Of a DNA stretch of 64,000 nucleotides, positions 101 to 62,580 are shown one piece after another (positions within the stretch are counted from its first letter, which is position 1; each line of letters starts with the position of its first letter). The notes under the pieces were generated by a model. The model had not been told where the DNA came from and ran no database searches. It was given only the letters and a program-made list of their open reading frames with translations. The translations under genes were made by a program, and so were the position numbers. The DNA comes from Eledone cirrhosa (lineage: Eukaryota), in the NCBI GenBank assembly GCA_964016885.1, contig OZ024742.1:365118001-365182000 (forward strand), written 5' to 3'.

Positions 101-212
101 TATATATATATATATATATATATATATATATATATATATAATAATAATAATAATAATAATTATAATGAAATGACAGGAGGCTGGATTTGTGTAAATCCTT
201 GAAAGGTTTATT

Positions 213-270
213 ATACTATGATCATTTCAATGACCGGGTTCCGTATGAATCCGGTGATATCATCAGGTAT
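213..270 (-). ncRNA. Type I hammerhead ribozyme
   Basis: Minus strand: ATAC-CTGATGA-(ACCGGATTC/GAACCCGGT hairpin)-GAAA-TGATCA-TA|GTAT; palindromic stem III. Confidence 0.75.
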
Positions 271-2076
271 TCGAAATATAATACGTGAATGTAATAGATA
301 AAATCCATGGGGCTGAAAATCAAGGACTCGAGGGCGACCGCCATCCACCACCTTCTACCTTAGCCGGTCGCCCTCGAGTGACGTGGCTAAAGCTTACAGT
401 GTGCTACTACCGGTCAGATAAAGGAAAACAGAAAGGGATGGGAACATAAGTTAGCGTTAATATCATGCCACAAGAAAAAAGAAAGAAAGAAAGAAGAGAG
501 AAGAAGGAGGAAGGAAGAAAAGGAAGAAGAAGAGAAGCCAGGGTTAATGTCAGCTATAAGAAGAAAGACAGAAAGAAAGAGGAGGAAAGGTCGGTATTAC
601 AGTCAGGCCAGGATTGTCGCGAAGAAATATTTTTATACTAAGGGACCCGTATCTTAACAACTACTACCGGTCAAATATAGGCAAACAAAAAGAGGGAAGG
701 AAGATAAGTCTGCGGGAGGAAGACAGAAAGAAGGGCGAAGAGAAGGAAGAAAATGAAGAAGTAGAAAAGTCAGGGTTGATGGCTACAAGAAGAAAGATAG
801 AAAGAAGGAGGAAGAAAGGCGTAATTAATGTCAGACTACAGTCAGGCCAGAATGGCGCGAAAATATGTTCACGGGGACACGTATCTTAGCAGAGGTAAAT
901 ATAGTGGGGTTCAGTGTGTTATAATGTGTGAGCAGAAGATTGGGACGTTACGTTTTTGTTTAGACTTACAGGATGAAGTTAAAAATTAATAATTAATATC
1001 TAATATCAAAGAAATTAGAAAATTAAAAAGTTAAACAGTTTAACATTTTATGGTTGATATATCTAATAGTTCTGATTTGATCTGTAATTTAAAGGTACTA
1101 TGTGGCGGTTAAAAAACCAGCCGCGCGCCCGGCCCATGGAGCAAATCAAGCCACTCCGAGTAGTTTCATTTACCGAAAGAAGGGGGAATTTATTATACTC
1201 GGAGTGGCTTGATTCGCCCCAGGGGCCGGGCGCACGGCTGGTTTTTTAACCGCCACATAGTACCTTTAAATTACAGATCAAATCAGAACTATTAGATATA
1301 TCAACCTTAAAATGTTAAACTGTTTAACTTTAAATTTTCTAATTTCTTTGATATTAGATATTAATTATTAATTTTTAACTTCATCCTATAAGTCTAAACA
1401 AAAAAGTAACGTCCCAATCTTCTGCTCACACATTATAACACACTGACCCCCACTATATTTACCTCTGCTAAGATACGGGTCCCCGTGAACATATTTTCGC
1501 GCCATTCTGGCCTGACTGTAGTCTGACATTAATTACGCCTTTCTTCCTCCTTCTTTCTATCTTTCTTCTTGTAGCCATCAACCCTGACTTTTCTACTCCT
1601 TCATTTTCTTCCTTCTCTTCTCCCTTCTTTCTGTCTTCCTCCCGCAGACTTATCTTCCTTCCCCCTTTTTGTTTACCTATATTTGACCGGTAGAAGTTGT
1701 TAAGATACGGGTCCGAAAATTTCTTCGCGACAATCCTGGCCTCACTGTTATACCGACGTTTCCTCCTCTTTCATTCTGTCTTTCTTCTTATAGCTGACAT
1801 TAACCCTGGCTTCTCTTCTTCTTCCTTTTCTTCCTTCCTCCTTCTTCTCTCTTCTTTCTTTCTTTCTTTTTTCTTGTGGCACGATATTAACGCTAACTTA
1901 TGTTCCCATCCCTTTCTGTTTTCCTTTATTTGACCGGTAGTAGCACACTGTAAGCTTTAGCCACGTCACTCGAGGGCGACCGGCTAAGGTAGAAGGTGCT
2001 GGATAGCGGTCGCCCTCGGGTCCTTGATTTTCAGCCCCATGGATTTTATCTATTACATTCACGTATTATATTTCGA

Positions 2077-2134
2077 ATACCTGATGATATCACCGAATTC
2101 ATACGGAACCCGGTCATTGAAATGATCATAGTAT
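2077..2134 (+). ncRNA. Type I hammerhead ribozyme
   Basis: ATAC-CTGATGA-stem II-GAAA-TGATCA-TA|GTAT, followed at once by AATAAA. Confidence 0.75.
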
Positions 2135-2364
2135 AATAAAGCTTTCAAGGATTTACACAAATCCAGCCTCCTGTCATTTCATTATATTTAACTCCGTAAT
2201 AGCACCACCAACTACAAAAACAAAGACGGTTGAACTGCTTTACGTTGAGTACTCTCCATATTATTACATTGCGATTGACCATACAGAATTGACCAGCTCT
2301 AGCCAGTGGTGAACCAAAACCTGAATAAATGAATATATATATATTATATATATATATATATATA

Positions 2365-3004
2365 GACACTACGGCTTAATACGGGTTGTTTGTTTACAAA
2401 CACACCGAGCATTATAATAAATGTTCGGTGAATCCATACGTGCATATATATATGTGTGCATGTATGTATATATATATATACATACTACTGTACATCTGTA
2501 TACATATATGTATGTACGTGTACATACTTATATTTAAGTAACAGCCGTACTAAGAGTGGGAAATGAAATATCGTTTCATTTTTTCCGTTTATCGTTTTCG
2601 GTGCACCCGGCCGATTAACCCACTCGATATGCAAATTGGGCAACTCAGCCGTTAATATGCATAGGGTAATTATATACGTTCAACAATCTGGCAGGAAGGT
2701 ATACGTTGCTGACGATAGCTAACAAGCTTGAAACTAGTACAGCGTTCCTTTGTCAGTGTTGAACAAACGAGCAACGGTGGTTGCTAAACACTACGGCTTA
2801 ATACGGGATGGTTGTTTACAAACACACCGAGCATTATAATAAATGTTCGGTGAATCCATACGTGCATATATATATGTGTGCATGTATGTATATGTATATA
2901 TACATACTACTGTACGTCGGTATACATATATGTATGTACGTGTACATACTTATATTTAAGTAACTAAGAGTGGGAAATGAAATATCGTTTCATTTTTTCC
3001 GTTT
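2365..3004 (+). mobile_element. Partial tandem pLTR-like unit (~422-bp period) with a central hammerhead
   Basis: 2366-2612 is repeated at 2788-3004; flanked by (TA)n; HHR at 2703-2745. Confidence 0.75.
2703..2745 (+). ncRNA. Type I hammerhead ribozyme (minimal)
   Basis: ACGTTG-CTGACGA-T-AGCT-AACA-AGCT-T-GAAA-CTAG-TA|CAGCGT; 6-bp stem I, palindromic ACTAGT stem III. Confidence 0.9.
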
Positions 3005-3373
3005 ATATATATATATATATATATATATATATATATATATATATATATATATATATATATATATATATATATATTTAATACAATAACAGAGATAGTTTAA
3101 AGCTAAACTCTGACTGGTAACCATCTCACTCAACAAACATTAGGTTATATTAAAATATAAACCCAATTTAAGTGTTTGGGGTGCTAACAATATGTATAAT
3201 GTGGAAAAACCAGTATTATTTTATGAGATATAATTAAAGTTAAAGTATATCTCTCTTTCCAAACAATTGTTTCATTATAAGTTTTCTACAAGTTTGGGAG
3301 AATGTTTCCAGTTTATGTAGAAGCCTAATATATATTCATGTAAGAATATATTTATGTGGGCACTTATAAATCT

Positions 3374-60245: not shown

Positions 60246-60837
60246 AATGTATATAGACAGGTAGAAATGTACGCAGATAGGTAGAGATGAGATGTAGATC
60301 CAGATGAATGTCGATAGATCGATAGATAATAGATACATAGGGAGAGTGATAGACAGTTTGGTAAATAGTTAGATACATCGATGATGTTTTTATCTCCCAG
60401 TATAGACTGACACGTAAGTAGATAGATGTTGCTTGTCCACTGGCCATCTTGTCAACACTGTGTGAGAGCAGAGGAAGAGAAGATATAAAATTATCATTCC
60501 CAAACAAATCTAGCACAATCAATGTGGTTGTCACTTGACAGACATGTTTTATTATAATGATGTATATATATGTATGTATATGTACACACAAGTATTCACA
60601 CAGGTATATATATAAAGAAACGTATATATACATATAAACCTGACGGTTTGAACTTTACAAAATTACCTGCCTCTTTGAGGTTAAATACCAACCCTACTAC
60701 CATCTACAAACTGACCAATGCGAATCAAGACTATTCCTGCTGACAACATTAAATTATTCCTAACAAGCTCATATGTCCCAAGGCTCTGATACCATCAACA
60801 CCATAAACACAGAGCTGGCATATCTAAGAACTGACTA

Positions 60838-60893
60838 ACTGCCTGATGAGGTCATAGCCATTGAATGGCTATCATCGAAATATATATAGCAGT
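60838..60893 (+). ncRNA. Type I hammerhead ribozyme
   Basis: ACTGC-CTGATGA-GGTCATAGCCATTGAATGGCTATCATC-GAAA-TATATA-TA|GCAGT, then AATAAA. Confidence 0.88.
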
Positions 60894-62078
60894 AAATAAA
60901 GGATTATGAGTTCATGCAATTGACTTATGTTTCGTCACTATATATATATATATATATATATATATATATATATATATATATATATATATATATATGTCCT
61001 TTTCCTCGCTAGTGTGTACAGCTCACAATCGGTGGCGAATTGTCGATTTGAGCAAGACATGTTTGTACCTGTAATTTAATGAGGTAGCCTTTGTGTCACG
61101 TGAATCTCTTTGCACACTGCGTTATTGAAGGCATTGACAGCATTTGCGATGACAAGATAATATATCCATAGCTATAATGTATATACCTACATATATACAT
61201 ATTCCTACAGATCTACCTCAAATAACTTCATTTCTCTCAACATCTTCACAATGACAAGATACAAATACATGATCAGGGTTATGAAGTATTCATTGTGGAC
61301 AACTGTCAAACACCGCCTTATTGTCCTCGCTCATATTTGATTATTTCTTACGTGTGTGTGTATTGTTTGAGGATATGCCCGTACGTTTTAACACATTTAT
61401 ATAAGATATGCTGCTGTTTTATTTTCTATATAGCTCACTAATGTCAGGAGAATACCAACAATTGTTTACGTCAGTTGTATAGAAAGAGACATTAGAAATT
61501 ATATGAAGAAGGAAAAGAAAGGTGATAACATCAAATTCGGAAATGATAGATATTGTTTCCTGAATGTCAGTGAAGGGGTCCCTCTGGCATCGATCTTTCG
61601 GTATTTCCTTCGTTGACATTGAGAAGTGTGAATGGTAGTACAATAAATCTGCAGACTGCAGTGGTTAGTAAGAAGTCAAGATATCTGACATGCTACACTA
61701 TCAAATGAATTATATGCGTTGCACTCATTCTGTTCAAACAACCTGTGTATAAATACATATACACAGGTATATATTAACGTGTACATTTACGCACACACAG
61801 AAAGGTGTATAGATATATATATAGAGAGAGGGGGGAATGAGACAGAGAGAGAGAGTTAGTTCCTCAACGCTTTACCGAACTCGTCCTTTGGACTGAGTGT
61901 TCTTCCAAATTCGGATATAATCTCCTGGGTTTTTACCACTGGTTGTTTACCGACACCCCAGGATGCAGATTGGAGCACTCGACGAAATACGCAGGCTGGT
62001 TTGTTTACTTCGGAGTACTGTAAAATAAGTAAGTGAAATATGTAAAATTTGGCTTCGTTTATTATAAATTATAAATTT

Positions 62079-62133
62079 ACTGTTAAATATATTTCGGTGA
62101 CAGCCATCATTGGCTGTGACCTCTTCAGGCAGT
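62079..62133 (-). ncRNA. Type I hammerhead ribozyme in fold-back module 61900-62342
   Basis: Minus strand: ACTGC-CTGAAGA-GGTCACAGCCA-ATGA-TGGCTGTCACC-GAAA-TATATT-TA|ACAGT; one stem I mismatch. Confidence 0.65.
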
Positions 62134-62384
62134 CCGAATTGGTGTGGAAAAGACAGGTATACATGTTGTTGAGGTGTGTTTCAGTCCGTCAATACATCGA
62201 TATGTCCAGCTCCTGGGTGTGTTGTTAGTCCTCCGAGGAACTGGAATCATATATGATGGCTGTCACCGAAATATATATAGAAGTAAATTTATAATTTATA
62301 ATGAACGGAGCCAAATTTTACATATTTGACTTACTTATTTTATATATATATATATATATGTGTGTGTGTGTGTGTGTTTATATT

Positions 62385-62580
62385 TAATATAAAAAAGGCT
62401 TCTACAGAACTAGAACTGTTTAATTCAGGAGAAAACATCAGTGCTTCCTAATGATTTCTTCCGAATGAAACAGTTCTAGTCCTGTAGAAGCCGTTTGTAT
62501 GTTAAATATGTATACTCTGCTTTGTATTCAGTACCTTACTTACTGTGGTTACAACCGATTGAACCCGGGATAAACTTGAT
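62385..62580 (+). mobile_element. Fold-back copy of the 7057 pLTR family with decayed hammerhead (CTAATGA)
   Basis: Inverted arm 62385-62441 joined to a forward copy starting 62443. Confidence 0.75.

What the first reader, a model, noticed from the sequence alone, without database searches (positions are those of the whole stretch)
161..62580. Common architecture at every scale: (TA)n - inverted 3' copy - forward copy - unique tail - (TA)n
Seen: fold-back inserts at 161-2335, 3872-5118, 10024-10480, 10941-13230, 14330-14628, family P, 19537-19745, 19788-20280, 21271-26046, 26355-27462, 27655-28024, 46517-46678, 61900-62342 and 62385-62580. Where polarity can be read from an HHR or ORF, both 3' ends point outward, and one arm lacks the last ~60-160 nt. 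Established: PLEs form inverted pLTR copies and favour AT-rich targets. Inference: both nicked (TA)n strands prime reverse transcription, one at the RNA end and one internally, which builds palindromes throughout the region.
Basis: partly seen in the sequence, partly recalled or inferred. Interest (0 to 1): 0.75.

Follow-up and report, generated by a model that had tools for sequence, protein, structure and literature searches.

The report
Back-to-back Penelope insertions, one-sided tail
The fold-back DNA pieces in TA repeats are real, genome-wide, back-to-back insertions of Penelope-like jumping genes, a known pattern; nearly every one pairs a short arm with a tailed arm, which likely means both cut DNA strands start copying one RNA at two fixed points, guided in one group by a small conserved hairpin whose role is untested.

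Summary
All 13 named inserts and family P are head-to-head repeats beside (TA)n with a 37-169 nt tail on one arm. They are 3' ends of Penelope-like elements (PLEs). The pattern is genome-wide: 72 of 85 TA-flush inverted repeats in 864 kb are one-tailed (null 0.6). The architecture, TA targeting, two-strand extension and two internal start sites are all in print. Added here: arms end at two fixed sites, proximal (P) and distal (D), and pair P+D in 128 of 142 pairs, never P+P or D+D in six families (3 such exceptions elsewhere). The two arms truncate independently (27 vs 31), 20 inversions share no sequence between arms, and mates share subfamily variants (111 vs 9). This favours twin priming on one template over fold-back. 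'RNA end' is not shown: D is internal in tandem copies. Hydra-type tails carry a covarying bulged hairpin 6-9 nt after P, also seen in coral and sea-cucumber Hydra elements. This scan already noted the tail rule and the hairpin on other DNA of this genome.

The parts
161..2332 (.). Fold-back of a hairpin-bearing PLE family: arms 161-~1170(-) and ~1170-2186(+), tail 2187-2332
2191..2250 (+). Bulged tail hairpin
3872..5118 (.). Fold-back, tail on left (3872-3968), arms 3969-4052 and 5035-5118; hairpin 3924-3963(-)
7025..7190 (+). Family Q single arm with tail, hammerhead core at 7063 (element extends further left)
8005..9790 (+). PLE with RT and C-terminal GIY-YIG (Neptune-like; label recalled), ends at its distal site, no inverted arm seen
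10045..10480 (.). Fold-back, tail 10325-10480; hairpin 10334-10393(+)
10941..13249 (.). Hydra-type PLE: short inverted arm 10941-11065, forward arm with EN region 11487-12236, tail 13081-13249; hairpin 13089-13158(+)
14317..14628 (.). Fold-back with 37-nt tail on left, no hairpin
14682..15151 (-). Tail-less single arm with hammerhead core (14778); same family as 60639-60938
15187..15331 (-). Family Q single arm with tail; hairpin 15231-15249
15347..15518 (.). Family P, older copy
15612..15799 (.). Family P: 109-bp palindrome and 79-nt tail; hairpin 15728-15751(+)
16949..17139 (.). Family P; hairpin 17068-17091(+)
19300..19389 (+). Family Q single arm ending at the proximal site
19537..19745 (.). 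Fold-back, tail 19634-19745; first half of the hairpin motif only
19788..20280 (.). Fold-back, 48-nt tail on left, no hairpin
21271..26046 (.). 4.8-kb PLE palindrome (Nematis-like; label recalled): tail-less arm 21271-~23690(-) is about 124 nt longer at its 5' end than the tailed arm 23691-25987(+); tail 25988-26046
26355..27463 (.). Inverted arm, tailed arm (to 26871), spacer, second tailed arm; hairpins 26715-26774 and 27307-27366(+)
27655..28024 (.). Fold-back, tail on left, nested 72-bp hairpin 27813-27884 at the join; tail hairpin 27719-27740(-)
32272..34465 (+). Hydra-type PLE ORF (frameshifted), no fold-back seen
35602..35784 (.). Family P, tail on left; hairpin 35640-35663(-)
44232..44364 (.). 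Family Q inversion without overlap: inverted proximal arm joined to a partial tail
44887..45092 (.). Family P, tail on left; hairpin 44935-44958(-)
46269..46477 (.). Family P, tail on left; hairpin 46317-46340(-)
46517..46678 (.). Family Q fold-back with tail; hairpin 46615-46633(+)
60639..60938 (+). Tail-less single arm with hammerhead core (60843)
61900..62342 (.). Fold-back, tail on left; hairpin 61977-62016(-)
62385..62580 (.). Family Q fold-back, older, flanks degraded

Best explanation
These are head-to-head insertions of the 3' ends of several Penelope-like retroelement families in (TA)n, likely written by twin priming: both nicked strands would each prime reverse transcription on the same RNA, one at a fixed proximal site and one at a fixed distal site. 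Shown: two fixed ends per family, one of each per insertion, independent inner truncation, arms from one source lineage. Inferred: a protein dimer (predicted for the anole PLE) nicks both TA strands; each 3' TA end pairs with 2-4 AU-rich bases of the RNA; the distal cDNA copies the tail, then usually runs on through the region already copied from the proximal site; the two cDNA ends are joined at short palindromes or hairpins and filled in. In Hydra-type families a bulged hairpin 6-9 nt after the proximal site is likely the protein-binding signal that sets that site.
For: Fixed ends: family Q, families 21271 and 161 (29 of 30 arm-anchored copies of 161 end at P or D, one reads through), Hydra and Neptune-like families. 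Pairing: 128 of 142 pairs are P+D, 5 more are Neptune-like P plus a near-D end, 9 involve an unclassed end, none P+P or D+D in six families; arm- or protein-anchored families give 12 of 12 and 15 of 15. TA-abutting ends in the unbiased sample: 127 P, 120 D. Inner ends: tailed arm longer 27, tail-less arm longer 31, near equal 73, unassigned 18, ambiguous 14, of 163 (p=0.69 for 1:1); short-read contigs confirm the extra 124 nt of 21271 belong to the tail-less arm. 20 inversions have a distal piece that stops inside the tail and shares nothing with the inverted arm, beside 266 distal arms that run past P. Mates are nearest neighbours in 6 of 6 Hydra pairs, with subfamily variants in both arms 111 times and one arm 9 times. 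127 of 214 tails begin TAT. Hairpin: 26 of 52 families (representatives 23, shuffled mean 0.64); with sequence-only anchors in 25 families, four flanking pairs covary (22, 22, 18, 17 of 25 Watson-Crick against 11, 8, 11, 6.5 shuffled), offset 6-9 nt in 22 of 25. In vitro, the anole PLE cleaves and extends both strands and starts at two internal sites bounding the tail (PMC11167929).
Against: Three symmetric inserts among 85 in the unbiased sample (one P+P, two D+D). Many copies are single arms (about 17 of 26 extended loci of family 161 show no partner). The in vitro paper saw no strand difference in start site and no homology to the target. One source locus making two RNAs, or arm-to-arm conversion, would also give concordant mates; only 2 of 5 Neptune-like pairs were scorable and had no informative sites. 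In family 21271, tail-selected copies differed from their mates at one site near P in most cases; I put this down to rare-word bias of the search but did not test it. 20 of the 30 best family P hits share one centre, as a unit copied whole would. The hairpin helix has pairing probability above 0.5 in only 13 of 25 folded tails. Three of six families were sampled by tail, which hides P+P; some loci may be counted twice.
Confidence: 0.62

Rival explanations
1. Twin priming on two separate RNAs from the same active source, with the nick geometry or protein asymmetry fixing which site each strand uses.
For: Explains independent truncation, overlap of arms without strand displacement, and mate concordance if one source is active at a time. 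A dimer could bind two RNAs.
Against: Does not by itself explain why P+P and D+D are nearly absent; the Hydra family has many subfamily variants, yet mates agree 111 to 9.
Confidence: 0.17
2. Fold-back or self-priming: one cDNA (or an antisense RNA, as proposed in PMC3846280) folds on itself and is copied back to make the second arm.
For: Centres cluster at short palindromes or hairpins (families Q and P); 73 of 163 have almost no spacer; gives concordant mates.
Against: Predicts that the loop always belongs to the same arm; seen 27 vs 31. Cannot make the 20 inversions whose arms share no sequence, unless later deletions did.
Confidence: 0.12
3. The short families (P, Q) are fixed palindromic miniature elements copied whole, like MITEs.
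For: 20 of 30 best family P hits have the same centre and length.
Against: 30 different centres among 37 distinct palindromic P copies; longer P copies continue 5' as a 1-kb single arm; subfamily variants sit in both arms; no symmetric ends. It may still hold for one young P sub-lineage.
Confidence: 0.06
4. Assembly or library artefact (fold-back chimeric reads at TA tracts).
For: No independent contig spanned a whole palindrome or the 21271 join.
Against: Arm identity has a median of 95.4%, only 4 of 72 at 99.9% or more; ends are family-specific; P-TA and D-TA joins appear in short-read contigs of two samples.
Confidence: 0.02

Closest known systems
EN+ PLE insertion structure (Craig et al. 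2021, PMC8557442 Fig. 2; Arkhipova et al. 2013, PMC3846280)
   Same: Inverted 5'-truncated copy at the 5' end, head-to-head, tail usually on one end, partial tandems, (TA)n preference, palindromes at the join.
   Different: Tails here are 37-169 nt, not 30-40; P+D pairing and independent truncation are counted; those papers ascribe the structure to EN-mediated resolution or antisense self-priming.
Poseidon of Anolis (PAc) in vitro (Frangieh et al. 2024, PMC11167929)
   Same: Both strands cleaved and extended; two internal start sites bounding the tail; start near a stem-loop; hammerhead cleavage not needed; dimer predicted.
   Different: That work did not test coupling of the two sites within one insertion, saw no target homology, and describes an AC-rich stem-loop; here starts sit at TA-like microhomology and Hydra-type tails carry a different bulged hairpin.
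Hydra clade of C-terminal EN+ PLEs (PMC8557442 section 11)
   Same: RW(K/R), DKT, CxCX5C linker, CxxC and CxH around the EN, (TA)n target in ORFs 11487 and 32272.
   Different: The tail hairpin did not appear in the passages I read; it is readable in 3 of 6 consensus sequences of file S7.
L1 twin priming
   Same: Second target strand primes internally on the same RNA, giving an inversion.
   Different: In L1 the internal site is variable and the pieces do not overlap; here both sites are fixed and usually overlap, giving a palindrome.

Membership tests
EN+ Penelope-like elements | RT with C-terminal GIY-YIG endonuclease in one ORF | tested here: met
   Pfam GIY-YIG in 8005, 21688, 25130 frames; weak RVT_1 in 21688 and 23371
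EN+ Penelope-like elements | Inverted 5'-truncated copy, head-to-head, tail at one end | tested here: met
EN+ Penelope-like elements | Partial tandems forming pLTRs | tested here: met
   26355-27463; L281, L292, L273
EN+ Penelope-like elements | Hammerhead core in the pLTR, sense to the ORF | tested here: met
   core pattern within 260 nt upstream of P in 18 of 52 families; Rfam gave no hammerhead hit at E<=1; cleavage untested
EN+ Penelope-like elements | Every short family has a coding partner | tested here: inconclusive
   ORF similarity in 8 of 45 families plus the Neptune-like family; P and Q rest on structure, hammerhead and hairpin
Hydra clade | RWK and DKT motifs | tested here: met
   RWR and DKT in ORF 32272 (definition)
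Hydra clade | CxCX5C linker, CxxC and CxH, no CCHH | tested here: met
   ORF 11487 has all three and one Cys between the GIY and YIG positions; 33827 has a Cys-to-Tyr change
Hydra clade | Canonical hammerhead | tested here: inconclusive
   not found by the core pattern in the 10941 family; found in other hairpin families, two of which have Hydra-type ORFs
Hydra clade | Placement by RT phylogeny | not tested
   no reference set on the script machine
Neptune / Nematis clades | CX2-5CxxC linker and CCHH in a C-terminal EN | tested here: met
   linker and paired Cys in ORFs 8005 and 21688; His pair not checked closely
Neptune / Nematis clades | Assignment to one of the two by phylogeny | not tested
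   labels are recalled from motif style
MITE (TIR DNA transposon) | Symmetric terminal inverted repeats, fixed length | tested here: not met
   72 of 85 are one-tailed; centres vary
L1-type twin priming | Inversion without duplicated sequence | tested here: not met
   20 such cases beside 266 distal arms running past P
(TA)n-targeted insertion | Empty site is plain (TA)n | tested here: inconclusive
   one satellite-unit analogue (L134 near 7406) and one uncertain pair (L170/L300) among 206 inserts tested; no allelic contig found

The most novel reading that the evidence does not exclude
PLEs integrate by obligate coupled twin priming: one protein dimer on one RNA starts two cDNAs at two fixed sites, one per target strand, and in the Hydra clade a bulged hairpin conserved from corals and sea cucumbers to this genome is the ruler that sets the proximal start 6-9 nt upstream, an RNA element that positions a telomerase-related RT.
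Probability: 0.45. Interest if true: 0.68.

Novelty: new member of a known kind. Interest (0 to 1): 0.46.

Why it matters
How PLEs make their inverted repeats is named as an open question in PMC8557442. The counts here separate the proposed routes (fold-back, EN resolution, twin priming) and give two direct bench tests: coupling of the two start sites, and the hairpin. A short RNA signal that fixes where a telomerase-related RT starts would bear on RT evolution and on using PLEs for insertion. For annotation, these pieces look like MITEs or miRNA hairpins but are PLE ends; 222 of 1339 TA tracts of 12 bp or more in the sample touch one.

Tried and rejected
Rfam scan: only microsatellite-driven miRNA hits below threshold, no hammerhead family. 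Allelic empty sites through unplaced contigs: no second copy for 2 of 2 flanks tried. Flank-pair search for empty sites: 15 of 206 inserts gave candidates, most were self-matches or chance adjacency of two abundant ends. Sequencing runs: no RNA holder listed; contigs only, none spanned a palindrome. Idea that family P's centre is the loop of a hammerhead stem: rejected, longer copies show a different upstream sequence, with the stop near the base of a small hairpin. Idea that distal cDNAs pile up exactly at P or at the hairpin: some do, but stops are spread through the tail and too few to call. Inner ends were not used for the length test, since alignment breaks distort them. Eight simple-repeat or non-PLE-looking clusters were dropped before the count. 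Paper searches found no report of P+D coupling or of this hairpin; subscription papers are not covered.
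Full report
Observation. Where ORFs or hammerhead cores give polarity, both 3' ends point outward. A few inserts depart from the formula (second tailed arm at 26355; degraded flanks at 19788, 61900, 62385), and the same families also appear as single arms and as an inversion without overlap at 44232.

Not special to this window. The window lies in a 3.0-Gb animal genome; earlier scan notes call it octopus-like, and I did not determine the species. In 864 kb taken without regard to content, 85 of 156 outermost inverted repeats touch a TA tract; 72 have a 25-200 nt tail opposite, 6 are flush at both ends, 7 have more than 200 nt; random placement gives 2.1 and 0.56. 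Of the six flush ones, one is P+P, two are D+D, one looks like a TIR element and two are unassigned. Arms are a median 95.4% alike, which fits ageing insertions, not chimeric reads. Short-read contigs hold both end-to-TA joins of the 10941 family but none spans a palindrome.

What they are. ORFs in the long inserts are PLE proteins. 11487 and 32272 meet the motif definition of the Hydra clade. 8005 and 21688 have a C-terminal GIY-YIG with a CX4CxxC linker; I call them Neptune-like and Nematis-like from recall, without a tree. Family P, the most MITE-like, is the 3' stub of a longer element with a degenerate hammerhead-like region and a strong stop about 55 nt upstream of its proximal end; its centres differ among copies (30 kinds in 37 distinct copies), though 20 of the 30 best hits share one.

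Two fixed ends, one of each per insertion. In each well-sampled family the outer ends fall at a proximal site P or a distal site D, within a few bases. P tends to sit just before TAT (127 of 214 tails), so the TA primer can pair there. Of 142 head-to-head pairs in six families, 128 are P+D, 5 are Neptune-like P plus a near-D end, 9 involve an unclassed end; none is P+P or D+D. Families sampled by arm or by protein, which would show P+P, give 12 of 12 and 15 of 15. In the unbiased sample P and D ends are equally common (127, 120). D is not shown to be the RNA end: tandem copies read through it.

Two cDNAs, one template. Fold-back of one strand predicts that the unpaired middle always belongs to the same arm. 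It belongs to the tailed arm in 27 and to the tail-less arm in 31 of 163 inserts, with 73 near equal, 18 unassigned and 14 ambiguous. In 20 inserts the distal piece stops inside the tail and shares nothing with the inverted arm. So each arm was likely primed and truncated on its own. Yet mates are each other's nearest neighbours in 6 of 6 Hydra pairs among 40 arms, sharing subfamily variants 111 times against 9, while carrying 0-15 private differences. That fits one RNA, but also two RNAs from one source or some conversion. One contrary sign, a site near P in family 21271 where tail-selected copies differ from their mates, may be search bias and was not resolved.

The tail hairpin. Tails of unrelated families share a helix NCUC/GAGN, a 2-nt bulge on the 3' side (UU in 16 of 25) and an upper stem with a loop span of 11-73 nt. 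It is in 26 of 52 families. With anchors chosen by sequence alone, four flanking pairs covary across 25 families (p 0.0001-0.0006 against shuffled partners; families are not fully independent), and the helix starts 6-9 nt after P in 22 of 25, while its distance to D varies from 30 to 97 nt. All six hairpin families with ORF similarity are Hydra-type; the two canonical-type families and the Neptune-like family lack it and have shorter tails, AC-rich in two. By eye, file S7 of PMC8557442 shows it clearly in Hydra-2_Amil, Hydra-2_Ajap and the start of Hydra-1_Ajap, partly in Hydra-1_Amil and Hydra-1_Crog, and not in Hydra-1_Obim. Folding supports the helix in 13 of 25 tails. Its function is inferred only from position and conservation.

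Mechanism. Most likely (0.62) a PLE dimer nicks both TA strands, each end primes on the same RNA at P or D, the distal cDNA usually displaces or follows the proximal one, and the two cDNA ends are joined at short palindromes. Single arms would be events where one cDNA was lost or very short. Rivals: two RNAs (0.17), fold-back (0.12), fixed miniature units (0.06), artefact (0.02).

What is known. PMC8557442 (passages, section 11, supplement parts 1, 52, 53 and one search) draws the inverted copy, one-sided tail and (TA)n target as typical and calls the mechanism open. PMC3846280 (passages) describes head-to-head repeats and proposes antisense self-priming. PMC11167929 (parts 1-2 of 4: abstract, results, start of methods) shows two-strand extension and two internal starts; its supplement was not read and may bear on stem-loop details. 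PMC4209133 (passages) covers PLE hammerheads. PMC13282606 (passages) lists active PLEs in an octopus without this structure. The retrozyme preprint 10.64898/2026.07.22.740005 was read in part 1 of 5 only. Seven searches found no report of P+D coupling or of the hairpin. Earlier AI notes of this scan on other DNA of this genome already state the one-tail rule and the hairpin; I had both before that call and tested them here.

Verdict. Real, known kind, with useful new mechanistic counts. Interest 0.46.

Noticed in passing
window 10481-10591 and 13561-13660: Small TA-flanked hairpin element flush at both ends, next to an inverted pair at 10596-10682 / 13662-13748; the flanks of the whole 10024-13748 block mirror each other, suggesting an older fold-back or TIR element interrupted by the Hydra insertion.
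   Followed up: no
window 29822-29897: Short run of telomere-like (CCCTAA/CCCCAA) repeats inside the chromosome arm, left of a coding fragment at 30572-31900 that looks like a transposase (recalled; no Pfam hit).
   Followed up: no
window 49767-57861: Two diverged copies (80% over 2.1 kb) of an APE-RT LINE on the minus strand, separated and flanked by long (CCTA)n-type tracts; the first is inserted into the Neptune-like copy at 47276-49800.
   Followed up: partly
window 63097-64000: Minisatellite of about 19-nt units.
   Followed up: no
L067 about 1290-1500: Family Q fold-back whose middle holds about 110 nt of unrelated sequence, a possible template switch to another RNA at the join.
   Followed up: no
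L033 2035-3027 (G000:C3 right flank): 993-bp element with 309-bp symmetric terminal inverted repeats in (TA)n and a coding-like interior; likely a true TIR transposon derivative.
   Followed up: partly
L128 3129-3462 (G000:C10): Perfect 334-bp palindrome with both ends at the proximal site; this family also has a fixed inner end about 167 nt upstream.
   Followed up: partly
864-kb sample: Share of TA tracts touching a PLE end ranges from 4 of 98 (C4 block) to 117 of 313 (window region); insertions pile up in each other's TA flanks.
   Followed up: partly
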